Source: Mogibacterium sp. (GTDB lineage Bacteria; Bacillota; Clostridia; Peptostreptococcales; Anaerovoracaceae). Taken from it: DNA of 30,733 nt. Position 1 is the stretch's first letter; every line of letters starts with the position of its first letter. The notes under the pieces were generated by a model. That model did not search any database. It worked only from the letters and a program-made list of their open reading frames with translations, and was not told the DNA's origin. The DNA lies in the NCBI GenBank assembly GCA_017434685.1, contig JAFREV010000099.1:1-30733 (forward strand), given 5' to 3'. A program made the translations under genes and the position numbers. Shown in pieces: positions 5,388 to 27,181 of the stretch.

Positions 5388-5580
5388 GAGTTTTTAAATA
5401 TTTCATACATTTAGAGATTATTTAGAAGAAATATGTATGAAATAATAAAAAAGCAGAAGTGAAAAGTTAACGATAACCATGATTTAAGCAGTTATTGTAT
5501 ATAAGAGTATAGAAACAAGAAGGGATTTCATACATTTATGGTTTTTATTGTTTAAATATGTATGATTTTTTAAAAAACTC
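5388..5580. repeat. MITE-like element, copy A (193 bp, 23-bp terminal inverted repeats, two internal inverted pairs)
   Basis: Ends GAGTTTTTAAATATTTCATACAT and ATGTATGATTTTTTAAAAAACTC; inner half-sites ATGTATGAAA (5433-5442) and TTTCATACAT (5526-5535); both spacers are 22 nt. Confidence 0.75.
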
Positions 5581-5610
5581 GTGCTTCAGATAGTTGTGAA
5601 AGAAAAAGGA

Positions 5611-6972
5611 ATGCTAAAGAAAGTAAATGCAAATGAGAATAGGAATAATGTAGAAATACCGCAGGTGAGAATAGGAGATGCGGAATTTCCACAGCCTTTC
5701 AGATCGGGCCTTGAGTACGCCTCACCGGCACGCGGCACCTGGAACATAGTTCATACGGGAATGCTCATTCCTGAGGCGCACGAGATATTCGTGTGTGCTT
5801 CGTGCTGCCTGCGCGGCGTTGTGCTCACGGCAGCCGAGATGGGCGCCATGGACAGGTTCTCAACGGTCGAAATTCGTGAGCACAACCTCCTCGATGGCGA
5901 CATGGAAGAACTCGTCATCGAGGGCGTTTCGGACATAATCAACAAACTTCCGAAACGGCCTCCGGCAGTCCTCGTATACACAAGTTGCGTCCACCATTTC
6001 ACGGGCGTGGACCTGGATATGATTTACGAAAGACTGCGCGAGCGCTTCCCGGATATAGACTTCACGGATTGCTATATGAATCCGATTATGAGAAAGAGCG
6101 GAATGACTCCGGATCAGTTAATGCGCTCGCGCCTCTACACTATGCTCCATGAGCGAGAGATAAATCCTAGGGCGGTCGCCATCATAGGAAACGACTTGCC
6201 TACCGATGAGGACAGCGAGCTTATGTACATATTGAAGTCAAACGATTTCATCGTGCACGAGATCACTTCCTGCAAATCCTACGAGGAATACCAGGAGATG
6301 GCCGAGAGCGCATACTACATCTCATACTATCCGGATGCGGTGCCGGGCGGAGATATGCTTGCAGACAGGCTCGGCGGCAAACACATAAAGATGGATTTCA
6401 GCTTCGACTACGAAGAGATAGACGAGACATTTGCCGAACTCGCCGGTGCGCTCGGCATCAATCCGAGAAAGCCGTCAGATATCTCAGATGCAAGACGCTT
6501 ATGTGAAGAGGAACTCGTAGCCACAAAAGAGCTCGTGGGGGACACGCCAATTGCCATTGACTATACATACTGCACCAGGCCGCTCGGGCTTGCCAAAATG
6601 CTGCTCACGCACGGCTTCAATGTGCAGAGAGTCTACCTGGATGCGGTGTCCGGAGGGGACAAAGATGCATTTGATTACCTCAAGAGAAAGTATCCGGATC
6701 TGATACTTTCACCTACAGTGCATGCAGGCATGAGGTTTGCTCAAACGGCAAACAGCGGGGCCGGTAGCAAAGTTCTCGCCCTCGGTCAGAAAGCCGCATA
6801 TTTTGAGAACACGAATCATTTCGTCAACCTCGTCGAGGGAGGCGGCATGATGGGCTACGAAGCCATATACAGAACTGCCCGCCTGATGCGCGAAGCTTTC
6901 GAGACGGAGAAAGATATGAAGGAACTGGTCGGAATCAAAGGCCTTGGCTGTGAAGGAGGATGCTGCTCATGA
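5611..6972 (+). CDS. Nitrogenase component-1-like oxidoreductase, alpha-like subunit (NifD/NifE/BchN/CfbD superfamily)
   Basis: VCASCCLRGV and YTSCVHHFTGVDL align with NifD HGPVGC and SECxxxxIGDD. It follows the nifH-like gene and has a Cys-rich C-terminus (GLGCEGGCCS). ATG 5611 is preferred because GTG 5581 abuts the repeat element. Confidence 0.85.
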   Translation: MLKKVNANENRNNVEIPQVRIGDAEFPQPFRSGLEYASPARGTWNIVHTGMLIPEAHEIFVCASCCLRGVVLTAAEMGAMDRFSTVEIREHNLLDGDMEELVIEGVSDIINKLPKRPPAVLVYTSCVHHFTGVDLDMIYERLRERFPDIDFTDCYMNPIMRKSGMTPDQLMRSRLYTMLHEREINPRAVAIIGNDLPTDEDSELMYILKSNDFIVHEITSCKSYEEYQEMAESAYYISYYPDAVPGGDMLADRLGGKHIKMDFSFDYEEIDETFAELAGALGINPRKPSDISDARRLCEEELVATKELVGDTPIAIDYTYCTRPLGLAKMLLTHGFNVQRVYLDAVSGGDKDAFDYLKRKYPDLILSPTVHAGMRFAQTANSGAGSKVLALGQKAAYFENTNHFVNLVEGGGMMGYEAIYRTARLMREAFETEKDMKELVGIKGLGCEGGCCS

Positions 6973-8339
6973 AGCAAACTTCAAGAATTACATCTACATA
7001 TTCGGCAGATACCATGGGCGTGTGCTCGGCTCTCTTTGAGCTGGGCGGCATGACCATAATGCACGATGCCTCAGGCTGCAACTCGACATATACGACTCAC
7101 GATGAACCGCGTTGGTACGACATGGACAGCATGGTGTACATCTCCGCGCTTACTGAAATGGAAGCCATAATGGGAGATGATGAAAAACTGTTGGGAGATA
7201 TCGAAGATGCAGTAAGAGAACTACATCCTAAGTTCGTGGCAATTGCCGGCACGCCGATACCGACCATGACAGGTTTTGATTTCGAGGCGGTGGCAGCTGT
7301 CGCAGAGCAGAGGACGGGCGTGCCGTGTTTCGGCTTTGCAACTACGGGCATGAACACCTACATTCACGGTGTATCGATGGCCTTCGAAACCCTGGCAAAA
7401 CGCGTAGTTAAAGATATTAAAACAGAAAAGAAAAAAGAATTGCCGTCAGATAACGAGAGGCAAGATGTACAAGAAGAAAGTTTCTCAAAACATACAGATA
7501 GCAATCAGTACGGCAGCCATTCAACAACTCCCAAAAAACTAAAGGTCAACATCATCGGCCTGACACCGCTCGACTTCTCAGTCAACGGGCAGGACTCTTC
7601 GATAGCATCATGGCTCGAGTCCGAAAATTTCGAAGTAGTCTCGCGCTGGGCCATGGGCTCAACGCTTGAAGAAATCGCCATGGCCGGCGAAGCCGACGTC
7701 AACCTCGTCGTCTCCGCCTCAGGCCTCGCCGCGGCGAAAGTCCTTTTTGAAAGATTCGGCATGCCTTATGCAGTCGGACTTCCAATCGGCCATGAGCTTC
7801 CAGGGGCTTTCGCGGACCTGATCAAAACCAAGGTACGGGAATTCAAAGAGGCGGATGCTTCGGCGGCCACATTCGAATCCCGCGAGATCAGCATCCACTC
7901 CGGCATATTCCTCGCCGGTTCCGATTCTCAAAACTCTGCTGCTCAGAACGCAACAGCGGAGAGAAAAAACACAACAGACAGTGTGCAACCATACAAGAAA
8001 GGTTTCACCGCCATAATAGGAGAGGGCGTTGCATCGTTCTCACTCGCGAACGCTGTTGAGCTCGATCTCGGCATTCCTGCCAAAGTGCTCTGCACTACGG
8101 AATGCCCGGAGGATATGCTCCGCGAGTGCGACCGCATTACGCCGGACGAAGACGACATAATCCCGGAACTTGAAGGCGCGGCATACATAATCGCAGATCC
8201 GCTCTACAAACCGATCTGCCCGCCGGAAGCCAAATTCATTCCGCTTCCGAGCGAAGGTTTTTCCGGCCGCCTCTACAGAGACGAAATCCCAAATTTGATA
8301 ACAGACTTTGAGGACTTTTTAAAGAAAAGATGCATATAA
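6969..8339 (+). CDS. Nitrogenase component-1-like oxidoreductase, beta-like subunit (NifK/NifN/BchB superfamily)
   Basis: MHDASGCNSTY matches the HGxxGC motif; AGTPIPTMTGFDF occupies the TCxxxxIGDD position. ATGA overlap with the upstream gene; GGAGG lies ~9 nt upstream of ATG 6969. Confidence 0.85.
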   Translation: MKQTSRITSTYSADTMGVCSALFELGGMTIMHDASGCNSTYTTHDEPRWYDMDSMVYISALTEMEAIMGDDEKLLGDIEDAVRELHPKFVAIAGTPIPTMTGFDFEAVAAVAEQRTGVPCFGFATTGMNTYIHGVSMAFETLAKRVVKDIKTEKKKELPSDNERQDVQEESFSKHTDSNQYGSHSTTPKKLKVNIIGLTPLDFSVNGQDSSIASWLESENFEVVSRWAMGSTLEEIAMAGEADVNLVVSASGLAAAKVLFERFGMPYAVGLPIGHELPGAFADLIKTKVREFKEADASAATFESREISIHSGIFLAGSDSQNSAAQNATAERKNTTDSVQPYKKGFTAIIGEGVASFSLANAVELDLGIPAKVLCTTECPEDMLRECDRITPDEDDIIPELEGAAYIIADPLYKPICPPEAKFIPLPSEGFSGRLYRDEIPNLITDFEDFLKKRCI

Positions 8340-8537
8340 CCTCAAAAATACGCATGCTATGCATCTTTTTGCGACACGACCTCCCGCTGAAGGATGAGAG
8401 ATGCCGAAAAAGCGGACGATAATCTCGTTTTCTATGTTTATCGTAAAGTTGTAAAAATCCCGAGAGTCCGCGACTTTCAAAAATGATGCATAAAGGCATA
8501 AAAAATGCAGTCAAATGCATCATTTGCTGAAAAACTC
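8313..8537. repeat. MITE-like element, divergent copy C (225 bp); overlaps the last codons of the beta-like gene
   Basis: Ends GACTTTTTAAAGAAAAGATGCAT and ATGCATCATTTGCTGAAAAACTC (23 bp each); inner half-sites ATGCATC (8359-8365) and GATGCAT (8485-8491); both spacers are 23 nt. Confidence 0.6.
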
Positions 8538-8757
8538 CTTCAGCAAAAGTATTCAGTCCCAAATTCAGGTGAGAAAAAGGGAAATATAAATCTTCTAAGC
8601 TCTCATCCAAACGGGACAATGAAGAATACAGCTTTGCCAATATTCAGAAGTGACAGCGCCAAAAAGTTTAACTGAGATGTGCGGTTGCCTTAAATAAGAT
8701 TGTTCCCTGCCCTAGGCGGGACAATATATAAAATATTAAAAAAGGAGGACTCTGAAT

Positions 8758-11749: not shown

Positions 11750-13315
11750 ATGAAAGCACTTAAGGCAAATTGCAGAATCGCAAAGATGAATCGCCGCATC
11801 AAATATGCTGCGTTGCTTGTTGTGCTCATTGCGCTGGCGCTGTCGCTTTCGACCTGTGCAAATAAAAAAGAAGCGATTACTTCCGTATCGCAGCTTAATG
11901 ATCCGAACATTACAATCGGAGTAGCGCAGGACACAGCTGAGGGGAAACTGGTCGAAAAAGATTATCCGAAAGCCAATATCCAATATATAAGAGGAGAGGT
12001 AGAAGCTTACACCTCTGTTTCTCAAGGAAAGATAGACGCCTTTATTTTCAATAAGGTGACCATGCAAACAGCGATGGTCAATGGCCTTACCGGAGTCAGA
12101 ATTCTGGATGAAAGCGTGGGGGAACCTGTCTACAGTGGAGTGGCATTCTCACCTGTGACCAAGGTCCCGGACCTGGAGAACAGTGTAAATGCTTTTGTTG
12201 ATGAGCTTACTGCCGACGGCACGCTTGATGAAATGACTAAACGCTGGATAGGTACTGCAGACGCGAAAATGCCGAACATACCGAAGCCGAGTAATCCCCA
12301 AAAGCATGTCGTAATCGGAACTACGGGTGCAAACATGCCGTATACTTACTACTCCGGAACCGATCTTACGGGATATGACATAGAGCTCGCTTACAGATTT
12401 GCACTTTGGTTTGATGCGTCAATCGAGTTTAAAGTATATGATTACAGCGGAATTGTCCCGGCGGCACAGAGTGGAGACATAGATTGCATATTTGCGAACA
12501 TGTTTATAACTCCGGAGCGTCAGGAAGCATTGCATTTCTCGCATCCTACCAGCAAAAGCGATATCGGCGTGATGGTAAAAGATGACAGCGCAGCCAATCC
12601 GATTGGAAATATTCGAAACAGCTTCTACAAGACCTTTGTACGCGAAGGCAGGTACAGGCTTTTCATAAAAGGAATAGGCATGACTTTATTGATAACCATT
12701 CTGGCTGTCCTTTGCGGCAGTATACTGGGGTTTTCAATATTCATGGCCTGCAGGCGCGGCAACCGGATAGCAAACGGATTTGCCCGTACATTTAATTGGC
12801 TGATGAACGGAATGCCTATAGTTGTGCTGTTGATGATACTGTACTATATCGTTTTTGCATCGACGGATATACCGGGATCGATTGTTGCGGCGTTAGCATT
12901 CACCTTGACTTTTGGCGCTGAGGTTTACAGCATGTTGAGAACCGCTGTCGGTACTATTGACATTGGTCAGACAGAAGCCGCTTACACTCTCGGATACACA
13001 GACTTGAAGGCGTTTTTCAGACACATATTGCCGCAGGCGATGCCGCATTTTATGCCTCCGTATAAGGCCGCTTTGGTCAATCTCGTAAAAGCCACATCGA
13101 TAGTAGGATACGTAGGGGTGCAGGATTTGACAAAGGTGGCAGATATCGTAAGGAGCAGAACTTACGAAGCATTCTTCCCGCTTATTGCAATTGCCGTAAT
13201 CTATTTCATACTGGCCGGCATACTTGTGTTCTTTATAGATCGCCTCATGAACAAGCTCGATCCTACAAAGCGCAAAGCAGAGGATATTTTGAAAGGGGTC
13301 AGAACTCATGATTGA
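11750..13315 (+). CDS. Polar amino-acid ABC transporter: substrate-binding domain fused to permease (GlnP-like)
   Basis: SBP_bac_3 motifs (GYDIELA, ITPERQEALHFS, GTLDEMTKRW) and a HisM-type TMD with the EAA loop GQTEAAYTLG. Alternative start ATG 11786. Confidence 0.92.
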   Translation: MKALKANCRIAKMNRRIKYAALLVVLIALALSLSTCANKKEAITSVSQLNDPNITIGVAQDTAEGKLVEKDYPKANIQYIRGEVEAYTSVSQGKIDAFIFNKVTMQTAMVNGLTGVRILDESVGEPVYSGVAFSPVTKVPDLENSVNAFVDELTADGTLDEMTKRWIGTADAKMPNIPKPSNPQKHVVIGTTGANMPYTYYSGTDLTGYDIELAYRFALWFDASIEFKVYDYSGIVPAAQSGDIDCIFANMFITPERQEALHFSHPTSKSDIGVMVKDDSAANPIGNIRNSFYKTFVREGRYRLFIKGIGMTLLITILAVLCGSILGFSIFMACRRGNRIANGFARTFNWLMNGMPIVVLLMILYYIVFASTDIPGSIVAALAFTLTFGAEVYSMLRTAVGTIDIGQTEAAYTLGYTDLKAFFRHILPQAMPHFMPPYKAALVNLVKATSIVGYVGVQDLTKVADIVRSRTYEAFFPLIAIAVIYFILAGILVFFIDRLMNKLDPTKRKAEDILKGVRTHD

Positions 13316-14411
13316 ACTTGTGCACCTCGAGAAAAAATACGAACAGACGACGCCTCTGAAAGATGTAAACACAGTCATTAACGATGGGGATGTTATCTCA
13401 ATCATCGGTCCGTCCGGAACCGGAAAATCGACTCTTATCCGATGCATAAATCTTTTGGACAGGCCGACCGGCGGCAAAATCATTCTGAATGGCGAGGAGA
13501 TAACAGCTCCCGGGTATCCAGTGGAGAAGGCTCGCAGAAAGATGGGAATGGTTTTCCAGTCGTTTAACCTGTTCGGACATCTCACCGTAATAGAGAACTT
13601 GATGGCGGCACCGATGGATATATTGCGCAAATCGAAACAGGAGGCTTATGACACGGGAGTCGAACTTTTGAAACGAGTCGGACTCTCGGGAAGGGAACTC
13701 CGGTACCCGCACCAGCTTTCAGGCGGACAGAAACAGAGAGTTGCAATTGCCAGGACTCTTGCGATGGACCCTGAAATCATATTGTTCGACGAGCCTACGA
13801 GTGCTCTCGACCCCGGCATGGTGGGCGAAGTGCAGTCTGTTATACGAGATTTGTCGCAGACGGGCAAAACCCTGATGATAGTCACCCATGAGATGAGCTT
13901 CGCACGTGCGATATGCAACCGCGTTTTCTACATGGATCAGGGTGGAATCTATGAGGACGGAAGTCCGGAGCAAATCTTCGACGATCCGAAAGGAGAACTG
14001 ACGAGGAGATTTATCAGAAAACTCAAGCTTCTGGAGCTTGAGATCGACAGCACGGAATTTGACTTCGCGCTTGCAAGCGGAGAAATCGATAAATACTGCC
14101 TGCAGAATGACGTCCCTCCACGCACAAAATACAGAATCAGGCTGGCATTTGAGGAACTGGTGCAGCAATTGCTGATGCCTGTATTAAAAAGGACCGCTGT
14201 TCATGTGACCGTCGAGTACTCTCCCGTGGAAATGCAGACGAGAGTGACTGCATCCTATGGTGGGGAGCGCTTCGATCCCGCAGAGGGCGGTAACGATCTC
14301 TCGTACAATGTGCTGAAATCTTCCGTGGAGGATCTGAGCTATGAGTACGACCTGAATGAAGAGAAGTCCAATATCGTAAATCTTGTTATTAAGGAATCAA
14401 AGGATATGTAG
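13308..14411 (+). CDS. Polar amino-acid ABC ATPase (GlnQ-like) with an extra ~125-aa C-terminal domain
   Basis: GPSGTGKST, LSGGQKQRVAIAR, ILFDEPTSALDP and VTHEM; 8-nt overlap with the permease gene. Confidence 0.92.
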   Translation: MIELVHLEKKYEQTTPLKDVNTVINDGDVISIIGPSGTGKSTLIRCINLLDRPTGGKIILNGEEITAPGYPVEKARRKMGMVFQSFNLFGHLTVIENLMAAPMDILRKSKQEAYDTGVELLKRVGLSGRELRYPHQLSGGQKQRVAIARTLAMDPEIILFDEPTSALDPGMVGEVQSVIRDLSQTGKTLMIVTHEMSFARAICNRVFYMDQGGIYEDGSPEQIFDDPKGELTRRFIRKLKLLELEIDSTEFDFALASGEIDKYCLQNDVPPRTKYRIRLAFEELVQQLLMPVLKRTAVHVTVEYSPVEMQTRVTASYGGERFDPAEGGNDLSYNVLKSSVEDLSYEYDLNEEKSNIVNLVIKESKDM

Positions 14412-15278
14412 CTACTTCTTGCAGGCCTCGCAAAGCGACGGCGACACCGCGCAGCCGCCGCGTCCTGTCTCACGAAGGCTCGAAGGAAGAGCGTGGCCCA
14501 CATCCGTCACTATTTCAGTCATTTCATCGAGCGGTATGCTTATACCGGCATCCGCAAGAGCGAGCTCCGCGGCTGTATATGCGCCGACGGCACCTATCGC
14601 ATTTCTGGTCTGGCACGGCACTTCAACAAGTCCGCGCACCGGGTCGCATACCAGACCTAGGAGATTTGAAAGGGCGATGCTCGCAGCCTTGCAGCATTGC
14701 TCCGGCGTACCGCCGATCATCTCCACAAGGGCGGAGGCCGCCATGGCCGACGCCGATCCGACCTCTGCCTGGCATCCTGCCTCGGCACCCGAGACCGAGC
14801 CGTTTCTGGTCAGTATATATCCGATTGCGCTCGCGTTTAAGAATCCGCTTCTGATGGTTTCCACGCTGACGTTATGCTCCTGAAAATATGAGAGCAAAAC
14901 CGCCGGCAGCACTCCGGCAGATCCCGCCGTCGGAGCGGCTATGATCTTACCCATGCTGGCATTTGTCTCAGACACCGCAAGAGCGGCGACTATGGCCTTG
15001 TGAATGGCCGGGCCACATACTGCCCTGGACTCATCGAGCTCATAGACTTTCTTGGCCTCTCCGCCAAGAAGTCCTCCCATCGAGGGGACTGGATCCGAAA
15101 CAGCCTTGTCCACTGCGACATCCATAACGCGCAGGCTCTCGTCCACATGTCTCAGAATATATTCTCTTCCGACCTGACCAAGCTGCATCTCACGCCTGAT
15201 CATGACTTCGGATATGGGCAGATCGTGCTTGCTGCAGAGTTTAAGTAATCCTTCCGTATTTTTAAAATCCCAGCTCAT
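14412..15278 (-). CDS. sdaA: L-serine dehydratase, Fe-S-dependent, alpha subunit
   Basis: IIAAPTAGSAGVLP, SGAEAGCQAEVGSASAMAA, LGLVCDPVRGLVEVPC..RN and SLRETGRGG; RBS AAGGAGG. Confidence 0.95.
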   Translation of the reverse strand: MSWDFKNTEGLLKLCSKHDLPISEVMIRREMQLGQVGREYILRHVDESLRVMDVAVDKAVSDPVPSMGGLLGGEAKKVYELDESRAVCGPAIHKAIVAALAVSETNASMGKIIAAPTAGSAGVLPAVLLSYFQEHNVSVETIRSGFLNASAIGYILTRNGSVSGAEAGCQAEVGSASAMAASALVEMIGGTPEQCCKAASIALSNLLGLVCDPVRGLVEVPCQTRNAIGAVGAYTAAELALADAGISIPLDEMTEIVTDVGHALPSSLRETGRGGCAVSPSLCEACKK

Positions 15279-17548: not shown

Positions 17549-17576
17549 TGCAGAAAACATAACAAATCCAAAAGGT

Positions 17577-17612: not shown

Positions 17613-17766
17613 CATCCTCATAATATATAAAGTTATCAATTAGGGAGAAGGACAGTGTTATGACTTATGATAAAGAATAACCGCTCTGTAACCATCATGA
17701 GAATACAATTCATAATGTAAAAAAAGGATATTGAGTGATATTCAATTCTTTTTCGGAGGACAGAAA

Positions 17767-20700
17767 ATGAATAGCATGAAGGGTAAATTGGCAACTGCAT
17801 TGATATCGGCAGCTGTGGTAATCGGCATGATGCCGTTATTTGCATCGCAGGTGCATGCGACGGACGGCGTGCAGTACCTCTATCGAAGCTGGGACTCAGA
17901 CAGCAAGAAGGTAGTCACGGAAACGAGAACCGCTAACTGCGTGGATTACAACGGCAGCATGAAAGACCTCCACCAGGGATGGTACTACGTGAACGGCTAT
18001 CACACGGTAGAAGATAGGGTGAACGTCTCCGGCGAGGTCAACATCATCATCCTGGACGGTTCCACTCTGTACCTGAAGGACGGCATCCATGTCCCTGCCA
18101 GCTCAACGCTCAACATCTACAATACACCGGGTGGCGAAAACGGGCTTTTTAATGCTGTGGTTGACACCAACAACTATGCTGCCATCGGTGGAAACGATGG
18201 TGAGGCTGCAGGTAATATCAACATACATAGTGGAAAGGTAATCGCAAATGCCTATAACGACAACAAAGGTGACGATGCAGCCGGCATAGGCGGTGGTTGC
18301 AACGGTAACGGCGGTACGGTCAGGATCTACGGCGGCACTGTCATGGCTCAGGGGGCCAACGAGTCCTCTTCTGGCGGCGCCGGCATCGGCGGCGGCGATA
18401 AAGGCACTGGCGGTGAAACATTTATCTACGGAGGCACGGTTACGGCCACGGGCGGTCCGGACGGCGCCGGCATCGGTGGCGGAAATGGGGCCAGCGGCGG
18501 CGGTGTTTATATACACGGCGGAAAGGTCATAGCTAATGGTGGCAACTACGCCGCAGGCATCGGCAGCGGCGACGCTGACGGAGACAATATCCATGGTGGC
18601 AATGTAGGGATATATGGTGGTGACGTGACCGCAGCAGGAGGCTGCGATGCAGCCGGTATAGGCGGCGGCGAGGATGGTGCAGGAGGAAATATCCATATTT
18701 CTGCTGGCACGGTTAAGGCGACCGGTGGAGTAAATGGCGCCGGAATTGGCGGCGGCGACTGCGGTGATGGAGGAACCATAACGATAAGTGGCGGTGATAA
18801 GATCACAGCCACAGGCGGCGCTAATGGAGCCGGTATTGGTGGCGGCAACGACCGCGTCTTTACAAAGATCGAAATCTCAGGCGGCACGATTGAGGCCACA
18901 GGCGGTGACTACGCGGCCGGCATCGGAAGTGGCGACAGAGATACCTCCACTGACGGCGGAACTATAAACATCAGTGGAGGAAATGTCACGGCAAAAGGTG
19001 GTACCGACGCTGCCGGAATCGGCGGCGGCGAGTGCTGCTCTGGCGGCACCATCAGCATCACTAACGGAGAAGTGATCGCAACCGGCGGCGTCGGCGGCGC
19101 GGGGATTGGCGGCGGCGACAGCGGCAATGGCGGAACAATCACAATAGAAAACGGTGTTGTTAAAGCCAAAGGCGGCCTGGAGATAGATAAAGACAACAAC
19201 AAACCTACAACAAACAATAGCGGCGCGGGGATCGGCGGCGGCTATGACGGCAATGGCGGAATAATAACAATAAAAGGCGGTGCCGTTGAAGCACGTGGCG
19301 GTGATTCTGCTGCGGGCATCGGCGGCGGAAGTGCCGGCGATGGCGGTAAGATTACCATAAGCGGAGGCACAATCACAGCCTCAGGTGAAATAAACGGAGA
19401 GCGTATTGAAGGCGTTTATGATGAAACTACCGGCGGTGCGGGGATCGGCGGCGGTCGAAATGATAACGGCGGCGAGATCATTATTACCGGAGGCACTATC
19501 GATGCAAGAGGCGGTCATGCCGCTGCCGGAATCGGCGGCGGAGTCGAAGGTAACGGCGGCACTATAACGATAAAAGGAGGCACAATCAAAGAAGCCAAGG
19601 GCGGATTCTATGCTGATTATAGTATAACAACTAGACAGCGCTGGGATGAAGGCGGGGCCGGTATCGGCGGCGGCGGAGACGGTGGCTCCGGCGGCACTAT
19701 CACCATTGATGGCGGCACCATCAATGCTCATGGGGGATGTCTGGGCGCTGGCATTGGAGGAGGAAGCGATGGTGCGTCCGGACAGATCGTAATAAATGAC
19801 GGGGAGATCAAAGAGGCAAAGAGCGGAAACGGCGGTGCAGGCATAGGCTCGGGCTCCACATGCACAAAAGATAACGCTGTGAATGTAACGATTAACGGCG
19901 GTAAAATCAGGGCGGTGGCCAGCGGGGCTCATCTTGCTACTGAAGGTTTATTTTCCTTTGCATTCAATCCCGGAGCAGCGATAGGAGCAGGAGGACCTTA
20001 TTATAAAACTACAGCGCTCGATCCGCCTGAACTTGTTGACGAGGCATATTTCAACGGGACGATCGATTTAAAATGCGGCGATGTGACTGTTGAAACCAAG
20101 GGAGTAGTTCCTATCGGAGGAACTGAAGAAGCCTGCGTCAATGATAGTAACGGAAAAGTAATATTTAATGGAGCGACCGTGCGCAGGCACAACATCGGCA
20201 CGCAGTACTGCAGGATGGTTTATGCAAAGGAGTTCCAATTCGGTGACTTGAGTCAGAGCGTAAGCTGCTATACATCAGCAAAGAACTACAACGAAGGTAA
20301 AACCACTTTGATTGTTCCAAAGAACGAAAGGGCTAACAAGATCCAGTCAAGCGATATGCCTTTCGAATATGTAGTGGTAGACAAATGCAATCATTCTGAC
20401 AGCACCTATAATGACAATGACAGTGACCATGACAGCACGCATTCACAGGAGTGCAACAGCTGCAATTACATCATAGATGCAGCAGAGCATAACTATGGTG
20501 ATCCTGAATGGACATGGGCTAAAGACTGCAGCTCTGCGACAGCTGAGTTCAAATGCATCCATTGCGGGCATGGCGAAGAGGTAACCGCAGAAATCACAAG
20601 CGACAAACCTGCTGAAGGCGGTGAAACGCAGGAGAAGACTGTCTATACGGCAACTGTGACCTTCAGGGGTAAAGAATACATAGATAAAAAAACTAAGGTC

Positions 20701-23166
20701 TTCAGCAAAGAAGCAGAAGTAATTGAAGCACCGAAAGCCCAATCTCTTACCTACAACGCGGAAGAGCAGGCTCTGGTAACCGCCGGAGTGGCCAGTAACG
20801 GTAAGATGCTTTACGCTCTCGGTGAAAGCGGGAACACAGCTCCTGCTGAGGAGAAATTCAGCGAAACCATCCCGACCGGTATCAACGCGGGTAGTTACAG
20901 GGTGTGGTACATGGCCAAAGGGAATGAAGGATACAACGATACTGATCCGAAGAGCCTTACTGTTACTATAGCCAAGCTGGCCTCAGCGAATTTAGTTTTA
21001 AAAATGGATCCGGAGGAGAACGAATATACCGGAAACGAGATCAAACCTGCGATTGTCGCAACATGCAATGGAAAAGAGATACCCCTGCAGCAGTTCGATT
21101 ACACAATATTTGGGTACGAAAAAAATATAGAGGTCGGACAAGCCTCAGTAACTGTAGTGTATAATTCGGATAATTCGAATAATATCGCTATTGACATGCT
21201 ACATTTGATGGTATTTGTGCCCTTCAAGATCGTACAGGCAACGAACAATGTCAGTGTTGCACTGGAAGACTGGACAGTTAATGAGGAAGCGAAAACTCCA
21301 CAGCTTACTGCAGATTTCGGGGCAGATACCGCAGCCTTTGTATATAAGAAAAAAGATGCCGAAGACAGCACCTACACAGATGCTGTCCCGAGCGAAGAAG
21401 GCGAATATACCGTAAAGGCGACCATCCCGGAAACTAAAAACTATGCCGGAGCAGAAGCCACCTGCGACTTCGAGATCACCCATGAGCATGGATGGGGCGA
21501 ACCGTCTTACGAGTGGGCAGAGGATAACAGTACCGTCACAGCTACCCGAGTCTGCACGGTAGAAGGAAAGCACACGCAGACGGAAACGGTTAACACGACC
21601 AGTGAGGTGACCACGGAGCCGACCTGTGAAAACAAGGGAGAAGCGACCTACACAGCAACTTTCAAAAACGAGGCGTTTGCAACACAGACCAAAACAGCAG
21701 AAGTACCGGCACTGGGACACGACTGGAGTGAACCTTCTTATGAGTGGGCGAAGGACAACAGCACAGTCACTGCTACAAGAGTTTGCACATTGAACCCGAA
21801 GCACGTGCAGACTGAAACTGTTAACACGTCCAGTAATGTGACAACAGAACCGACTTGTGAAGACGAGGGAGCTGCGACATATACTGCAGCTTTCGAAAAT
21901 GCGGCGTTCGAAACACAGACTAAAACAGCAGACATACCGGCACTGGGCCACGACTGGAATGCGGCGACATACGAGTGGTCTGATGACAACAAATCTGTCA
22001 CGGCAACCAGAGTTTGCAAACGCGATGCATCGCACAAGGAAACCGAGACGGTCGAGGCTTCAGAAGAAACAAAACCTGCAACGTGTACAGAAAATGGCAA
22101 GACCACGTACACTTCGGGCGCTTTCGAAAACGAAGCGTTTGATGTTCAGACAAAAACAGAAGCCAATATCGATGCTCTCGGTCATGACTGGGGCGAGGTA
22201 ACATATGAGTGGGCAGATGGCAACAAATCTGTCACAGCTACCAGAGCTTGCAACCACGATGCAGAGCACAAAGAGTCAGAGATTGCGGAAGTAATTGTTG
22301 AAATTACAAAGCATGCAACATGCACATCCAAGGGAGAAACCACCTATACAGCAAGCTTTGAAAATGAGGCATTCAAGACGCAGACCAAGACTCTTGAAGA
22401 TGTAGCCATAGATCCTGATGCTCATACCTGGGATGAAGGCAAGGTCACAAAAGAAGCAACAGAGTCTGAAGAAGGAGAAATGACATACACCTGCACATTG
22501 TGCGGTGAAACCAGGACGGAAACAATTCTAAAGGTGAAACCTACTCCTGAACCAACTCCGGCACCTACGCCTGCAAAGAGCACTGCAAAACCGGTGCTCG
22601 TGGCCAAGGGAATCGCCAGCGGCAAGACATCTGTCAATATCTCATGGAACAAGGTCGCAGGTGCAGACAGGTATGCGATCTACCTCGCCAAGTGCAACTA
22701 CAAGGGCAAAAAGTACTCCTTCAAGCGAGTCAAGGTCGTAAATGCAAACACCCTGAAATGGAAGAAGACCAAGCTCAGCAAGAAGACTGCATACAAGTTC
22801 TACGTAGTAGCTGAGAAGAAGCAGGGCAGTACATACAAGACACTGGCCAAGAGCATAGACGGGCACTTCCTGACAGGAAACCTCAGGGGCAAATACACCA
22901 ACCCGAAGAGCCTCAAGCTTTCGAAGAGTGCGTACACCCTGAAGAAGGGCCGGAGCGCAACCATTAAGGGAAGCGTGAGCAAGGTCAGAAAGGGCAAGAA
23001 GCTCACCACGAGCCACGCAGCTACCTACAGGTACACCAGCAACAACCCATCGGTTGCGACAGTAAACTCGAAGGGCAAGATCACAGCCAAGGGTCAGGGC
23101 ACAGCAGTGATCTATGTCCAGACCATCAACGGTATCTGGAAGACCTGCAAGGTGACCGTTAAGTAG
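17767..23166 (+). CDS. Large secreted/cell-surface repeat protein (1799 aa): Gly-rich AGIGGG repeats, Ig/MBG-like domains, His/Cys repeats, Pro-Thr linker, basic FN3-like and Ig-like (Big_2-type) C-terminus
   Basis: GGAGG precedes ATG 17767; signal peptide ending ..QVHA; repeats visible in the translation; C-terminal TYRYTSNNPSVATVNSKGKITAKGQGTAVI is a Big_2-like motif. Confidence 0.88.
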   Translation: MNSMKGKLATALISAAVVIGMMPLFASQVHATDGVQYLYRSWDSDSKKVVTETRTANCVDYNGSMKDLHQGWYYVNGYHTVEDRVNVSGEVNIIILDGSTLYLKDGIHVPASSTLNIYNTPGGENGLFNAVVDTNNYAAIGGNDGEAAGNINIHSGKVIANAYNDNKGDDAAGIGGGCNGNGGTVRIYGGTVMAQGANESSSGGAGIGGGDKGTGGETFIYGGTVTATGGPDGAGIGGGNGASGGGVYIHGGKVIANGGNYAAGIGSGDADGDNIHGGNVGIYGGDVTAAGGCDAAGIGGGEDGAGGNIHISAGTVKATGGVNGAGIGGGDCGDGGTITISGGDKITATGGANGAGIGGGNDRVFTKIEISGGTIEATGGDYAAGIGSGDRDTSTDGGTINISGGNVTAKGGTDAAGIGGGECCSGGTISITNGEVIATGGVGGAGIGGGDSGNGGTITIENGVVKAKGGLEIDKDNNKPTTNNSGAGIGGGYDGNGGIITIKGGAVEARGGDSAAGIGGGSAGDGGKITISGGTITASGEINGERIEGVYDETTGGAGIGGGRNDNGGEIIITGGTIDARGGHAAAGIGGGVEGNGGTITIKGGTIKEAKGGFYADYSITTRQRWDEGGAGIGGGGDGGSGGTITIDGGTINAHGGCLGAGIGGGSDGASGQIVINDGEIKEAKSGNGGAGIGSGSTCTKDNAVNVTINGGKIRAVASGAHLATEGLFSFAFNPGAAIGAGGPYYKTTALDPPELVDEAYFNGTIDLKCGDVTVETKGVVPIGGTEEACVNDSNGKVIFNGATVRRHNIGTQYCRMVYAKEFQFGDLSQSVSCYTSAKNYNEGKTTLIVPKNERANKIQSSDMPFEYVVVDKCNHSDSTYNDNDSDHDSTHSQECNSCNYIIDAAEHNYGDPEWTWAKDCSSATAEFKCIHCGHGEEVTAEITSDKPAEGGETQEKTVYTATVTFRGKEYIDKKTKVFSKEAEVIEAPKAQSLTYNAEEQALVTAGVASNGKMLYALGESGNTAPAEEKFSETIPTGINAGSYRVWYMAKGNEGYNDTDPKSLTVTIAKLASANLVLKMDPEENEYTGNEIKPAIVATCNGKEIPLQQFDYTIFGYEKNIEVGQASVTVVYNSDNSNNIAIDMLHLMVFVPFKIVQATNNVSVALEDWTVNEEAKTPQLTADFGADTAAFVYKKKDAEDSTYTDAVPSEEGEYTVKATIPETKNYAGAEATCDFEITHEHGWGEPSYEWAEDNSTVTATRVCTVEGKHTQTETVNTTSEVTTEPTCENKGEATYTATFKNEAFATQTKTAEVPALGHDWSEPSYEWAKDNSTVTATRVCTLNPKHVQTETVNTSSNVTTEPTCEDEGAATYTAAFENAAFETQTKTADIPALGHDWNAATYEWSDDNKSVTATRVCKRDASHKETETVEASEETKPATCTENGKTTYTSGAFENEAFDVQTKTEANIDALGHDWGEVTYEWADGNKSVTATRACNHDAEHKESEIAEVIVEITKHATCTSKGETTYTASFENEAFKTQTKTLEDVAIDPDAHTWDEGKVTKEATESEEGEMTYTCTLCGETRTETILKVKPTPEPTPAPTPAKSTAKPVLVAKGIASGKTSVNISWNKVAGADRYAIYLAKCNYKGKKYSFKRVKVVNANTLKWKKTKLSKKTAYKFYVVAEKKQGSTYKTLAKSIDGHFLTGNLRGKYTNPKSLKLSKSAYTLKKGRSATIKGSVSKVRKGKKLTTSHAATYRYTSNNPSVATVNSKGKITAKGQGTAVIYVQTINGIWKTCKVTVK
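18178..19995 (+). repeat. Coding repeat array: ~19 copies of [AG]A[GA]IG[GS]G...GG.I.I.GG.V.A.GG
   Basis: Counted by eye in the translation, from AAIGGNDG to GAAIGAGG. Confidence 0.85.
21487..22530 (+). repeat. Coding tandem repeats: four 77-80-aa units (H.W....YEW..DN..VTATR.C.....H...E......PTC...G..TYTA.F.N.AF..QTKT) plus one short HTWDEG..C..C unit
   Basis: Unit-start His codons at 21487, 21718, 21949, 22183 and 22423 (periods 231, 231, 234 and 240 nt). Confidence 0.9.
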
Positions 23167-23265
23167 ACAAACAAATTTATAGAATCTGAATTAACTCGAA
23201 CGAAAGAATTCCCGGTGCTATTATTGGGTATGGCAATGGGACAGAATAATTCAGAAAATGCAAAG

Positions 23266-23315
23266 AAAAAAAGAGAATTGCGGCATGCTGGATGGTGTGC
23301 GCAGTTCTCTTTTTT
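23266..23315. terminator. Strong, probably bidirectional terminator
   Basis: A7-GAGAATTGCG...CGCAGTTCTC-T6 with an inner GCATGC/GTGTGC extension. Confidence 0.85.
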
Positions 23316-23347
23316 ATGCTTTTTCCGTTCTTGTGATGACGGCTAAG

Positions 23348-23533
23348 ATGAAGCTTTCAGACAGGAATCGCAGGATCCTTTCAGTTGTATTCTGGGCATT
23401 TATCGGCTCGCAGTGCGCTGCATTTTTCAGAAGGCCTGTTGCCGAAGACGGCACGGTAAAGAAATCGCAGACCCCGGTTATTCTCATACTGGCAGCGGTA
23501 ATTATAGGATTACTGATGAATACAATGATATAG
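23348..23533 (+). CDS. Possible small two-TM membrane protein (61 aa)
   Basis: MKLSDRNRRILSVVFWAFIGSQCAAFFRR...VILILAAVIIGLLMNTMI. The longer track ORF runs through the terminator, so a later start was chosen. No clear RBS. Confidence 0.4.
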   Translation: MKLSDRNRRILSVVFWAFIGSQCAAFFRRPVAEDGTVKKSQTPVILILAAVIIGLLMNTMI

Positions 23534-23537
23534 CTGA

Positions 23538-24023
23538 TTAGTTATTGTATGTGCCCGGGGCCTCGGCTACTGCGAGCACATGGCCTTCCATGGCATGCAT
23601 CAGCTCGTTGTAGAAGAAACCTCTCTCAAGATCAAGCTCGCAATCCAGCGCGTACACTTTCAGAGTATATACGTGCGGCTCGTTCGGTGGTGCCATACCA
23701 ATATATCCGACTGAGTTCTCTCTGCCGTTTGAACCGAAGCAGCTGTTGACTCCCTGCACGAAATCGGCATTTGCACTTGCTCCTTCAGGAATGTCCGTGC
23801 TCTTGATGTTTGCGGCAATCCAATGAATCCACACGAAACCGCATACCGGAACCGAGTCGATATCGTCCAGTACGAGCGCATAAGAAACAGTGCCCGCAGG
23901 TGCATCCTCGATCTTGAACGGAACCGAGAGGCAAGGGTTGCCGAAACCGTCTTTGAGTTCACCGTGTTTGCCGTACTTGTCCGGAATCATTCCGCCGTTC
24001 ATAGCTTCACTTACTATCTTCAT
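23538..24023 (-). CDS. YbhB/YbcL family Raf-kinase-inhibitor-like (PEBP) protein
   Basis: IPDKYGK, APAGTVSYALVLDDIDSVPVCGFVWIHWIAANI, YIGMAPPNEPHVYTLKVYALD; RBS AGGAGG. Confidence 0.9.
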   Translation of the reverse strand: MKIVSEAMNGGMIPDKYGKHGELKDGFGNPCLSVPFKIEDAPAGTVSYALVLDDIDSVPVCGFVWIHWIAANIKSTDIPEGASANADFVQGVNSCFGSNGRENSVGYIGMAPPNEPHVYTLKVYALDCELDLERGFFYNELMHAMEGHVLAVAEAPGTYNN

Positions 24024-25429: not shown

Positions 25430-25506
25430 GCAACTTGTTTGCAGCGGCGTGAAGGAATAGAATGCAAGCATCTAAAGATAAAGATGAAAGGATATATCAG
25501 CGGACA

Positions 25507-26601
25507 ATGAAAGAGAAATTTGATCTTCAGCAATACCTGTCAGATGGGGTAGAGCAGGTAGTAAAGGATGCGATGAAAGCCACTCTCAAAGATCCGAGGG
25601 AGAGTGCTTTTATTGCGAAGTTCGCCGTCGCAAGCGCGAAAGCAAATATAAAGAGAATCAAAGAGGAGAAGGAAGGACTTCACGTGCCTTCTTATCTTAT
25701 TGCAAGTATAACTTCGAGCTGCAACCTTCACTGCGCGGGCTGCTACTCAAGAGCGAATAATGCCACAGTAGACTGCGAGCCGAAGAAACAGCTGACGGAC
25801 GAGGAGTGGCTTTGCATATTCAAAGAAGCCGAGGAACTCGGCATCAGCTTCATACTGCTTGCCGGAGGCGAGCCTATGCTGAGATGGGATGTGCTGCAAG
25901 CGGCGGGAAGCGTTCCGAACATACTCTTTCCGATTTTTACAAACGGCACTTTCATGAGCGAAAAATACATGGAGCTTCTGGACAGCTGCCGCAACCTCAT
26001 ACCGGTCATAAGCATTGAAGGCGATCGCAGCGAGACTGACAGGCGTCGTGGCGAAGGTGTTTACGACACCGTAATATCCAAAATGGATGAACTGCACAGG
26101 CGCGGCCTTATATACGGAGTGTCGGTTACCGTCACAAAGGAGAACCTGCATGAGGTATATTCAGATGAATTCCTCGACCTAATGATACAGCGCGGATGCA
26201 AAGCCGTATTCTACATTGAATATGTGCCTGTGACAGATGAGAGCAAGGAACTTGCGCCTGACGATGCCGACCGCGATTATATGACTGAGAAGATGGACAG
26301 CTTGAGGGCAAATCACCAGGATATGATGTACGTTGCATTCCCGGGGGATGAAAAAAGCTCCGGTGGATGCCTTGCAGCGGGACGCGGGTTCTTTCACATC
26401 AACTCGCATGGTGGAGCGGAGCCTTGCCCGTTCTCGGCATATTCAGATATCAATGTAAAGGACACCTCAGTAAGAGAAGCGATGGGCTCAGGCCTTTTCA
26501 CCGCACTTCGAGACGGTGGCGTGCTCTCGGGCGAACACATCGGCGGCTGCGTCCTTCACGAAAAACGCGACCAAGTCGAAGCAATACTCAGGGGAGAATA
26601 A
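25507..26601 (+). CDS. Radical SAM protein with a SPASM/twitch-type C-terminal domain, function unknown
   Basis: ITSSCNLHCAGCYS, LAGGEPMLR, FTNGT, SIEG and GGCLAAGRGFFHINSHGGAEPCPF. Start uncertain (25462 or 25507). Confidence 0.85.
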   Translation: MKEKFDLQQYLSDGVEQVVKDAMKATLKDPRESAFIAKFAVASAKANIKRIKEEKEGLHVPSYLIASITSSCNLHCAGCYSRANNATVDCEPKKQLTDEEWLCIFKEAEELGISFILLAGGEPMLRWDVLQAAGSVPNILFPIFTNGTFMSEKYMELLDSCRNLIPVISIEGDRSETDRRRGEGVYDTVISKMDELHRRGLIYGVSVTVTKENLHEVYSDEFLDLMIQRGCKAVFYIEYVPVTDESKELAPDDADRDYMTEKMDSLRANHQDMMYVAFPGDEKSSGGCLAAGRGFFHINSHGGAEPCPFSAYSDINVKDTSVREAMGSGLFTALRDGGVLSGEHIGGCVLHEKRDQVEAILRGE

Positions 26602-26607
26602 TATACA

Positions 26608-26995
26608 CCAGTTATGCAGTTATGGATAACTGGCACAGTGCCATGAATAAGTGCATGCACAGCATAAAATGAAACGCTGCACACACACTTATTCACAGCC
26701 TGCTTTGAAGCCAGTTACCCACAGCCTGCACAACTGCTACTACGAACGTTTAATAATAACAACAATACAGATTGTTATTATTTCTCATTACTAATATCCC
26801 GTCGTAGTCGAGGCGGTGGATTATGTTGATAAGCGACGCTGATTATTAGGGAGCGGTGGATAAGTCGGTGGACAGAGCGTCTCTGTCCATGGACTTATCC
26901 ATGGCTCCTCGCTTATCCACGTAATCCATGGCCTTTCCAGTGGGTTCTCGAAAATAAGACATATAATCTAAAGCGCGATTTAGGGAGTTGGATAA
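26608..26995. other. DnaA-box-like cluster with a DnaA-trio-like motif and long hairpins
   Basis: TTATTCACA 26689 (perfect TTWTNCACA). One-mismatch boxes: TTACCCACA 26715, TTATCCACG 26913, and reverse-strand TTATCCATA 26621, TTATCAACA 26824, TTATCCACC 26855. Several 2-mismatch boxes are also present; CTACTACGA at 26737. Confidence 0.6.
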
Positions 26996-27002
26996 TAAAT
27001 AG

Positions 27003-27181
27003 GAGTTTTTTTAATTTTCATACATCTTGAGGGGAAAAATTGATATATGTATGAAAATCATCAAAAATGCCCTGGGAAAGTTTGATAATGAGCAACTTTT
27101 GAGAAAAAAGACAAGAAAAACTGCACTTTTCATACATATATGAAAAAAATTGGCGCAAATTTATGAAATATTCAAAAACTC
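27003..27181. repeat. MITE-like element, copy B (179 bp), upstream of the nuclease-like gene
   Basis: Ends GAGTTTTTTTAATTTTCATACAT and ATTTATGAAATATTCAAAAACTC; inner half-sites ATGTATGAAA (27047-27056) and TTTCATACAT (27128-27137); both spacers are 21 nt. Confidence 0.75.

What the first reader, a model, noticed from the sequence alone, without database searches (positions are those of the whole stretch)
5388..27181. Three copies of an unnamed element with exactly spaced 23-bp terminal inverted repeats and doubled internal palindromes
Seen: copies at 5388-5580 (A), 8313-8537 (C) and 27003-27181 (B). Each begins GA(G/C)TTTTT-N8-(C/G)AT(A/G)CAT and ends in the near reverse complement ...AAAAACTC, always spanning 23 bp. 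Inside, each end is one half of an inverted pair. Within a copy the two spacers have identical length (A 22/22, B 21/21, C 23/23, about two helical turns), while spacer and central sequences have diverged. Copy C carries a covarying core (GATGCAT for CATACAT) at all four sites, which points to selection on symmetry. No target-site duplication or transposase is visible. Inference: a non-autonomous mobile/REP-like element or a four-site protein-binding array.
Basis: partly seen in the sequence, partly recalled or inferred. Interest (0 to 1): 0.75.

Follow-up and report, generated by a model that had tools for sequence, protein, structure and literature searches.

The report
Palindrome modules tied to a nuclease family
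The three repeats are real, recently inserted copies of a roughly 200-bp palindromic DNA module that belongs with a large, unnamed family of nuclease genes in gut and rumen bacteria, and its protein-binding half-sites all sit on one face of the DNA helix.

Summary
Observation confirmed. Copies A (5386-5582), C (8311-8539) and B (27001-27183) share one architecture. Each has AGGAS-T4-6 termini and two outer palindromes (nnnnnTRCAT, about 23 bp, ATGYAnnnnn). Most also have a central palindrome, TTGACRATAAC...GTTATYGTCAA.

All three are absent from the orthologous sites of the closest relative. They are also present or absent independently in related strains in other metagenomes. A covariance model finds 352 half-units in 38 of 67 genomes of the genus, and almost none elsewhere in the family.

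The main new result concerns copy B. It lies 65 bp upstream of a 264-aa gene (27248-28042) with no Pfam, NCBIfam or PHROG match. Its C-terminal domain has a Vsr/I-Bth0305I-like PD-(D/E)xK nuclease fold. The gene family is multicopy, and homologues fall in over 3000 clusters at 50% identity. Most close homologues carry their own module upstream, and the module's core sequence follows the protein tree. Gene plus module is itself a 1.5-kb insertion. A and C are gene-less copies.

Distances between palindromes are quantised at 10.45 bp. This points to a looped protein-DNA complex rather than an RNA structure.

How the module moves is unresolved: there is no target-site duplication and the flanks are ragged.

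The scan noted the same gene and palindrome pairing once before in another genome (e1-4263954), without follow-up.

The parts
5386..5582 (.). Copy A, a gene-less ('solo') module between the NifH-like (4632-5384) and NifD-like (about 5611-6972) genes. Termini: AGGAG 5386-5390 and AAAAAACTC 5572-5580. Outer palindromes: TTTCATACAT 5401-5410 / ATGTATGAAA 5433-5442, and 5526-5535 / 5558-5567. Central palindrome: ACGATAAC 5470-5477 / GTTATTGT 5491-5498.
   Evidence: Sequence. Model R1 hits at 5386-5449(+) and 5519-5582(-). The region 5380-5609 is replaced by 17 bp in G024 and is absent from strains in runs X3, X5 and X7.
8311..8539 (.). Copy C, a solo module with a different core class. GATGCAT 8329-8335 / ATGCATC 8359-8365, and 8485-8491 / 8515-8521. 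Central palindrome ACGATAA 8417-8423 / TTATCGT 8438-8444. Its left terminus supplies the last codons and the stop of the NifK-like ORF (6960-8339).
   Evidence: Sequence. R1 hits at 8311-8375(+) and 8475-8539(-). The region 8301-8735 is replaced by 67 bp in G024. It is absent in run X7 and present in X3 and X5.
27001..27183 (.). Copy B, the gene-linked module of the same core class as A. CATACAT 27019-27025 / ATGTATG 27047-27053, and 27131-27137 / ATTTATG 27159-27165.
   Evidence: Sequence. R1 hits at 27001-27063(+) and 27121-27183(-). The orthologous module in G026 has CATGCAT at all four half-sites.
27248..28042 (+). 264-aa gene (P0001). It has an N-terminal helical hairpin with a beta-hairpin carrying GNRKKE, and a C-terminal Vsr/I-Bth0305I-like PD-(D/E)xK nuclease domain. 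It is the proposed cognate protein of the CATACAT-class modules.
   Evidence: No Pfam, NCBIfam, PHROG or PDB sequence match. AF2 model with pLDDT 86.6. Fold matches. Multicopy family.
26594..28082 (+). A 1.49-kb insertion unit: an AT-rich leader with TTATCCAC-like boxes (26602-27000), then module B, then the nuclease gene. It lies between a radical-SAM gene (25462-26601) and a DNA-alkylation-repair gene (28061-28759).
   Evidence: In G024 the two flanking genes (94% and 91% identical) abut with an overlapping stop and start. Blastn places 20 bp there against 1489 bp in the window.
27217..27227 (+). An extra single half-site (AAATATGTATG) about 20 bp upstream of the nuclease start codon.
   Evidence: Motif listing. 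Other gene-linked loci mostly lack such a fifth site, so its meaning is uncertain.

Best explanation
A, B and C are copies of a modular, genus-restricted DNA element of about 160-290 bp. It is the cognate site array of an uncharacterised family of 264-aa nucleases. These proteins have a Vsr/EDxHD-like PD-(D/E)xK C-terminal domain and a fast-evolving N-terminal reader domain.

Shown:
- One module sits 50-550 bp upstream of most close family genes.
- The module's class-specific half-site (nnnnnTRCAT) follows the protein phylogeny.
- Gene plus module is a 1.5-kb insertion.
- Gene-less modules of the same classes are separately inserted in unrelated intergenic spacers and outnumber the genes.
- All half-sites lie on one helical face. 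Arms within a palindrome are about 31 bp apart, and palindromes are whole turns apart with a period of 10.45 bp.

Inferred: a nuclease dimer occupies each roughly 50-bp palindrome, as the homodimeric homing endonuclease I-Bth0305I occupies its roughly 60-bp site. Two dimers then bridge the outer palindromes into a small DNA loop. The central palindrome or the A/T tracts may help bend the DNA. This complex probably autoregulates the gene. It probably also drives spread of modules and genes through nuclease-induced breaks and recombinational copying (homing or gene conversion). Gene-less copies would be non-autonomous passengers, analogous to REPINs with their RAYT.

The chemistry of insertion is not resolved.
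For: Reality and architecture. In 49 aligned half-units, G2 G3 A4 T6-9 and the T.CA of the arm are invariant.

Covariation of arms: 93.7% of positions are complementary, against 70% in shuffles. There are 102 double changes against 36.5 expected, matched by 0 of 500 shuffles.

Insertion polymorphism: the NifH|NifD gap is 13-30 bp in about 20 of 30 genomes, including G024 (98% and 96% aa identity), and 229 bp here. C and the B unit are absent in G024. Strain-level presence and absence is seen. The frr|uppS copy of G016 is absent from 95%-identical relatives.

Unrelated flanks.

Gene link:
- Model R1 hits 24 of 30 loci of close homologues, always on the upstream side.
- 40 of 80 family loci across Bacillota have repeated palindromes within 900 bp upstream, against 2 downstream, 1 far upstream, and 1 of 80 shuffled loci.
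- Core 7-mers occur almost only in the module.
- Core class fits the protein tree with the minimum number of changes, matched by 0 of 200 shuffles.
- Two 87.5%-identical paralogues with different cores differ mostly in residues 1-51 (18 of 33 changes). Only 3 changes fall in the nuclease domain.

Co-occurrence: 30 of 33 genus genomes with a close gene have modules, against 8 of 34 without. There are 352 half-units against 51 close genes.

Helical phasing: Rayleigh R is 0.77 at 10.45 bp (n=83; null maximum 0.37). Module lengths give R 0.70 at 10.5 bp (n=49; null maximum 0.53).

The dimer and roughly 60-bp footprint of I-Bth0305I are taken from PMC3239194.
Against: There is no biochemical evidence that the protein binds or cuts these sites.

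The fit of core class to the protein tree is also what simple linkage of a gene to its upstream DNA would give.

No target-site duplication was found. Every filled and empty pair shows replacement of the whole spacer with ragged extra DNA. The primary insertion event is therefore never seen.

Some genomes hold many modules but no close gene, for example G016 and G025 with 11 half-units each. The C and D class has no cognate gene in this 60%-complete assembly.

The conserved AGGAS-T termini are the same across classes and are not explained by class-specific recognition.

The PDB Foldseek matches alone are weak (E about 0.1).
Confidence: 0.65

Rival explanations
1. The module is only the promoter and operator cassette of the nuclease gene. 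Gene-less copies are relics left after the gene was deleted, not independently inserted DNA.
For: The module always lies upstream of the gene, with its last half-site typically 54-206 bp before the start codon. There is no target-site duplication, and the flanks are ragged.
Against: Solos sit in spacers with no room for, or trace of, an 800-bp gene. Examples are NifH|NifD, frr|uppS and HgdB|activator, where ancestral gaps are 14-63 bp. A 71-bp mini copy has one palindrome and both termini. There are about 175 modules against 51 close genes. Different classes have entered the same NifH|NifD junction in different genomes.
Confidence: 0.13
2. The copies are ordinary MITEs moved in trans by a classical (DDE or HUH) transposase encoded elsewhere. 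The nuclease gene merely captured one as its upstream region.
For: The copies have terminal inverted repeats, small size, no coding capacity, intergenic dispersal and patchy distribution.
Against: No target-site duplication was found. No pair of termini was seen enclosing a gene in the listed hits. Y1 transposase is not found in G000, G024 or G019, although each has 15-19 half-units. The association holds across about ten core classes, and also in distant family members whose arrays lack these termini. Helical phasing of internal sites is not a MITE property.
Confidence: 0.1
3. The element works as RNA, as a structured intergenic hairpin cassette acting as a terminator, insulator or stabiliser.
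For: The arms covary like stems and are flanked by A and T runs. Copies lie inside operons or after genes. In 11 contexts, none lay between divergent genes.
Against: The element is symmetric on both strands. Distances are quantised at the DNA helical repeat. The stems are 10 AT-rich pairs with 23-nt loops. There is no Rfam match, and no terminator-like sites above chance.
Confidence: 0.05
4. The element is an operator array of a host transcription factor that controls a regulon, for example the nitrogenase-like cluster.
For: It has four phased palindromic half-sites. Two copies lie in one gene cluster.
Against: The flanking genes are functionally unrelated. The sites are absent from orthologous loci of close relatives. 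Several core classes coexist in one genome.
Confidence: 0.03

Closest known systems
REPIN/RAYT systems (REP-associated tyrosine transposases and their dispersed palindromic doublets)
   Same: An enzyme gene is flanked by its own class of palindromic repeat. Many gene-less copies of the same class sit in intergenic DNA. Several enzyme and repeat classes can share one genome.
   Different: The enzyme here is a PD-(D/E)xK (Vsr-like) nuclease, not an HUH Y1 transposase. The repeats are 160-290-bp modules of widely spaced inverted arms on duplex DNA with helical phasing. They are not 20-40-bp hairpins with GTAG or CGTC heads. The gene is multicopy and is itself inserted, whereas RAYT is single-copy.
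Free-standing homing endonuclease genes, especially the EDxHD family (I-Bth0305I)
   Same: Both have a Vsr-like nuclease fold in a C-terminal domain with an N-terminal DNA-reading region. I-Bth0305I is a homodimer on a roughly 60-bp pseudo-palindromic site, comparable in size to one outer palindrome here. Here too, a small selfish gene is inserted between conserved genes with patchy presence.
   Different: Homing endonuclease genes split or remove their target and do not keep intact site arrays beside the gene. They are not known to spawn gene-less site modules. They occur mostly in phage introns and inteins, whereas no full-length homologue was found in phage or plasmid records.
Bacterial MITEs (Correia, RUP, BOX, bcr1 and similar)
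   Same: They have terminal inverted repeats, are under 300 bp and non-coding, are dispersed in intergenic DNA, and show insertion polymorphism between strains.
   Different: There is no target-site duplication and no parent IS with the same ends around a transposase. Within a class only the binding motifs are conserved, while the spacers have diverged.
Looping nucleases and repressors that need two phased sites (type IIF enzymes such as SfiI and NgoMIV; LacI, AraC, NrdR and DeoR operators)
   Same: Palindromic sites are separated by whole helical turns, which implies one protein assembly touching both.
   Different: Here the sites are packaged in a mobile module with conserved termini. No methyltransferase partner lies in the unit.

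Membership tests
REP/REPIN-RAYT | The associated enzyme is an HUH Y1 transposase (Pfam Y1_Tnp) flanked by the repeats | tested here: not met
   PF01797 is not found in G000, G024 or G019, which have 15-19 half-units each. It is present in G016 and G078. The linked gene has a PD-(D/E)xK fold.
REP/REPIN-RAYT | The repeat is a 20-40-bp imperfect palindrome with a GTAG or CGTC head | tested here: not met
   The arms are 10 bp and separated by about 23 bp, and the termini are AGGAS-T4-6.
REP/REPIN-RAYT | Class-specific pairing of enzyme and dispersed gene-less repeats in one genome | tested here: met
   A shares its core with gene-linked B. The C75 mini copy shares its core with the gene-linked C1 copy. 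Core class follows the protein tree.
MITE of an insertion sequence | Terminal inverted repeats, small size, no ORF | tested here: met
MITE of an insertion sequence | Target-site duplication of fixed length | tested here: not met
   Four filled and empty comparisons were made: A, C, the B unit and G016 frr|uppS. All show replacement of the spacer and no clean direct repeat.
MITE of an insertion sequence | A parent element with the same termini enclosing a transposase gene | tested here: not met
   The associated gene lies outside the termini. Paired R1 hits are 161-291 bp apart in the listed matches. Only 150 of the 352 hits were listed.
EDxHD / Vsr-like homing endonuclease | Vsr-like PD-(D/E)xK catalytic fold | tested here: met
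EDxHD / Vsr-like homing endonuclease | The E-D-x-H-D catalytic motif | tested here: inconclusive
   E162, D192 and E207-H208 are invariant. No residue-level superposition was obtained, and profile searches against PDB sequences find nothing.
EDxHD / Vsr-like homing endonuclease | Cleaves the gene-less allele at or near its own insertion site | not testable with these tools
   This needs an in vitro cleavage assay. The computational finding is that the radical-SAM|alkylation-repair junction is occupied in G000, G026 and G069 and empty in 27 other loci.
Type II restriction-modification | A cognate methyltransferase gene beside the nuclease | tested here: not met
   The 1.49-kb unit holds only the nuclease ORF.

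The most novel reading that the evidence does not exclude
This is a previously unrecognised class of bacterial selfish element. A Vsr-like PD-(D/E)xK nuclease, whose N-terminal reader re-specifies quickly, assembles on helically phased palindrome modules. It propagates both itself and gene-less modules. That would make it a duplex-DNA, nuclease-based counterpart of REPIN/RAYT. The more than 3000 divergent clusters would form a natural library of long-site nucleases with a readable protein-DNA code.
Probability: 0.35. Interest if true: 0.88.

Novelty: new variant of a known kind. Interest (0 to 1): 0.8.

Why it matters
The finding links a dispersed repeat to a very large protein family with no annotation in any library searched. 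That family has 5242 clusters at 50% identity with E<=1e-3, and 3071 with E<=1e-10.

It gives a concrete, testable pairing of each protein clade with a DNA word (nnnnnTRCAT). The site geometry, quantised at 10.45 bp, predicts a looped complex.

If the nuclease binds or cuts these sites, three things follow:
- It would be a new way for bacterial DNA to be mobile.
- It would be a source of strain-level variation inside conserved operons of rumen and gut Anaerovoracaceae.
- It would be a candidate scaffold for nucleases with long, re-programmable sites.

For annotation, it explains why assemblies of these genomes break at these loci. It also explains why short intergenic spacers differ between near-identical strains.

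Tried and rejected
(1) Metal-regulator or NikR-like operator, or a regulon. Rejected because the flanking genes are unrelated and the sites are absent from orthologous loci.

(2) A small ORF starting at the ATG of AATGATGCAT behind the AGGAG. Rejected because the other core classes have no ATG there.

(3) Known RNA families. There are none in the window.

(4) Sigma-70 promoters or intrinsic terminators in the modules. They are not above the shuffled expectation. The central palindrome has a -35-like TTGACA but no convincing -10.

(5) Target-site duplications. None was found. Short direct repeats near B (GAGAATAATA / GAGATAATAA) and C (TCCCAAATT) are imperfect or misplaced.

(6) Y1 transposases. 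There is no consistent association.

(7) TTATCCAC (DnaA-box-like) clusters as a general part of the unit. Only 5 of 80 loci have three or more.

(8) Naming the protein by sequence. Pfam, NCBIfam, PHROGs and PDB sequences gave nothing. The homologous helicase C-terminal domain is also uncovered by Pfam.

(10) Literature searches for Vsr-like or DUF559 selfish elements, and for REPIN-like elements in Firmicutes, found no description of this system.
Full report
WHAT IS THERE

The three copies are real. Each starts with AGGAG or AGGAC followed by a run of T. About 8 bp further on, a 10-bp arm ends in TRCAT. A spacer of 21-23 bp follows, and then the inverted arm. The same arrangement, reverse-complemented, closes the element.

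B's last arm has one mismatch.

Between the outer palindromes, A and C carry a third palindrome, ACGATAA...TTATYGT. It recurs at a fixed offset in 12 of 22 modules from relatives, against 3 of 22 shuffled centres.

The window lies in a 1.27-Mb, 60%-complete assembly. Its relatives are rumen and gut MAGs labelled Anaerovoracaceae or Mogibacterium.

NOT CHANCE

A regex for one palindrome hits 8 places in the genome, and 7 of them lie in four elements. First-order Markov genomes give 0-2 hits.

A detector that ignores the core sequence looks for any 9-bp inverted arms with an 18-27-bp spacer, repeated 90-230 bp away with the same arm. It gives 14 hits against 0 in shuffled contigs.

A pattern search in 61 genomes found the unit only in the genus. 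The reversed control gave 0 hits.

Forty-nine half-units from many genomes align over 67 columns, with AGGAS-TTTT and the T.CA of the arm invariant. The arms are 93.7% complementary, against 70% in shuffles. There are 102 double-sided changes against 36.5 expected, matched by 0 of 500 shuffles.

A covariance model (R1) finds 352 half-units in 38 of 67 genomes of the genus, up to 23 per genome. It finds 7 loci in this genome. Outside the genus it hits only 2 of 150 genomes sampled from the rest of the family. This also shows a low false-positive rate.

INSERTED, NOT ANCESTRAL

The closest relative, G024, is collinear with the window at 83-94% nucleotide identity but lacks all three copies:
- A: 5380-5609 in the window against 17 bp in G024.
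- C: 8301-8735 against 67 bp.
- The B unit: 26594-28082 against 20 bp.

The NifH-like|NifD-like gap is 13-30 bp in about 20 of 30 genomes. In G077, G085 and G021 the same junction holds modules of other core classes.

Contigs from independent metagenomes carry related strains. One strain lacks A but has C (runs X3 and X5). One lacks both (X7). One matches the window (X2).

A fourth solo, between frr and uppS in G016, is absent from relatives whose Frr is 95% identical. Those relatives have a 63-bp spacer instead.

Flanking genes across a dozen solos are functionally unrelated. They include GltD-like|CoaBC, PNP|Udk region, UppS|Frr, RlmN|IleRS, HgdB-like|activator and dUTPase|oxidoreductase. 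This rules out a regulon.

No clean target-site duplication appears in any filled and empty pair. The whole short spacer is replaced, and extra DNA of 30-200 bp accompanies the module.

THE GENE BESIDE COPY B

Copy B ends 65 bp before a 264-aa ORF (27248-28042). The ORF matches nothing in Pfam (even at E<=10), NCBIfam, PHROGs or PDB sequences.

Conserved residues and fold:
- An alignment of 40 homologues shows invariant S159, E162, P191-D192 and W206-E207-H208-G210, plus an N-terminal GNRKKE.
- An AlphaFold model (pLDDT 86.6) has a long helical hairpin with an inserted beta-hairpin, followed by an alpha/beta domain.
- That domain matches C-terminal domains of UvrD/RecD-like helicases and DUF559 proteins in AFDB. 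E ranges from 1e-9 to 1e-4, with 33-37% identity for the best matches.
- Foldseek against PDB gives only weak hits to other PD-(D/E)xK nucleases.
- tblastn confirms sequence homology of the domain to helicase C-termini on plasmids (E 5e-13).
- No full-length homologue was found in phage or plasmid records.

I-Bth0305I is a Vsr-like homodimer that footprints about 60 bp (PMC3239194).

Size of the family:
- Homologues fall in 5242 clusters at 50% identity with E<=1e-3, and 3071 with E<=1e-10.
- All are unnamed, and many are on short contigs.
- In the genus, 59 of 67 genomes have matches, up to 9 or more per genome.

GENE AND MODULE GO TOGETHER

R1 hits 24 of 30 loci of close homologues, always on the upstream side. 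The core-blind detector finds paired palindromes upstream in 17 of 30 of these loci, each with its own core.

Across 80 family loci from many Bacillota, 40 have repeated palindromes within 900 bp upstream. Only 2 have them downstream, 1 far upstream, and 1 of 80 shuffled loci has any.

Core 7-mers occur almost only as the four half-sites of the module. The last one typically lies 54-206 bp before the start codon.

Core class maps onto the protein tree with the minimum possible number of changes. The GTTA and TGCG clades have 100/100 support, and 0 of 200 shuffles do as well. Linkage alone would also give this result, so it is supporting evidence rather than proof.

Three further observations are more telling:
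- Solos share cores with gene-linked modules elsewhere in the same genome. A matches B, and the C75 mini copy matches the C1 locus.
- Two paralogues that are 87.5% identical but have different cores differ mainly in residues 1-51 (18 of 33 changes). Only 3 changes fall in the nuclease domain.
- 30 of 33 genomes with a close gene have modules, against 8 of 34 without. Relatedness among genomes inflates any test of this.

The gene with its module is itself mobile. In G024 the radical-SAM and alkylation-repair genes abut. The same junction is occupied by diverged family members in G026 and G069 and is empty in 27 other loci.

HELICAL PHASING

Centre-to-centre distances between palindromes range from 50 to 239 bp (n=83, many loci and classes). 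They fall on multiples of 10.45 bp. Rayleigh R is 0.77. The best R over periods 7-16 bp in 2000 random sets had a mean of 0.22 and a maximum of 0.37.

Total lengths of 49 modules found by R1 cluster at 197, 208, 219, 229, 239, 250, 270, 280 and 291 bp. R is 0.70 at 10.5 bp, with a null maximum of 0.53.

Arms within a palindrome are about 31 bp apart, which is three turns. Spacer centres carry an A or T tract.

Some points are not independent, because they come from orthologous loci or from non-adjacent pairs in arrays. Even so, about 18 different multiples are populated.

This is what a protein assembly touching all sites from one side of duplex DNA would select for. An RNA structure would not.

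HOW IT MOST LIKELY WORKS

Shown: the module is a discrete DNA unit, inserted at many places, that travels with a nuclease family and has phased, class-specific inverted half-sites.

Inferred:
- The N-terminal region reads the outer part of each arm.
- A dimer spans one palindrome, as I-Bth0305I spans its site.
- Two dimers bridge the outer palindromes into a 110-210-bp loop.
- The complex represses the adjacent gene.
- By cutting, it provokes recombinational copying that spreads modules and genes.

The conserved termini, the role of the central palindrome and the insertion chemistry remain unexplained.

Genomes with many modules but no close gene (G016, G025) may hold orphans or unassembled genes.

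COMPARISON WITH KNOWN SYSTEMS

The system behaves most like REPIN/RAYT, in that an enzyme is paired with its own dispersed repeat class. It fails the defining tests for that family: there is no Y1 transposase and no GTAG-type REP.

It resembles a MITE but lacks a target-site duplication and a parent IS.

Its nuclease fold and gene-level behaviour resemble free-standing homing endonuclease genes of the EDxHD family. Those do not keep intact site arrays or spawn gene-less modules.

Literature searches found no description of this system.

I therefore rate it as a new variant of a known kind (enzyme-associated non-autonomous repeats). There is a real chance that it is a new class of mobile element.

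Noticed in passing
G000 contigs C155:13250-13560, C174:2520-2740, C182:3990-4230, C96:4980-5150, C49:1840-2110, C101:2360-2560, C206:1490-1710: Tandem arrays of palindromes with other cores (TTGGTCC/GGACCAA, ACTTAC/GTAAGT, GGGGGTAC/GTACCCCC). Spacers are 18-26 bp and the period is about 63 bp, roughly six turns. The C182 array lies just downstream of a distant paralogue of the nuclease (C182:~2818-3630). Distant family members in other taxa have similar arrays at periods of 52, 62, 72 and 83 bp.
   Followed up: partly
window 26602-27000: The leader of the B unit holds several TTATCCAC/TGGATAAG (DnaA-box-like) words. Similar words flank the C155 array and precede the C182 paralogue. Across 80 family loci they are mildly enriched upstream, at about 0.4-0.5 per kb against about 0.1. 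Only 5 loci have three or more.
   Followed up: partly
window 11842-23538: An 11.7-kb block is replaced by 115 bp in the closest relative G024. It holds an amino-acid ABC transporter, serine dehydratase subunits and an 1811-aa ORF at 17731-23166.
   Followed up: no
window 8290-8320 (left end of copy C): Strains in runs X3 and X5 carry a 20-bp tandem duplication (ACAGACTTTGAGGACTTTTT) of the flank-plus-terminus junction.
   Followed up: no
window 8301-8339: Copy C's left terminus encodes the last residues and the stop codon of the NifK-like ORF. The C-terminus differs from that in G024, which ends ...DNPEAILGQLK.
   Followed up: partly
L045 (G032), L059 (G084), L047 (G036): NifH-like|NifD-like junction: The same junction holds unrelated inserts in other genomes. 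One is a 210-bp element with ATATGCATAGATGC termini, one is a tandem repeat of about 70 bp, and one is a 159-bp spacer. The junction is a hotspot.
   Followed up: no
L001 = G000:C187:1395-1504 and 3620-3700: A SAM riboswitch lies upstream of metK. A 25-bp tandem repeat (CGGATAGCGATCACTGATGCAGGTC) lies just after copy D.
   Followed up: no
L206 and L207 (G019, G025) frr|uppS spacer: The empty spacer holds a GC-rich hairpin (GCGGCGTGGC...GCCACGCC) that the module replaces in G016. G004, G008 and G028 have other, non-module inserts of 187-261 bp at this junction.
   Followed up: partly
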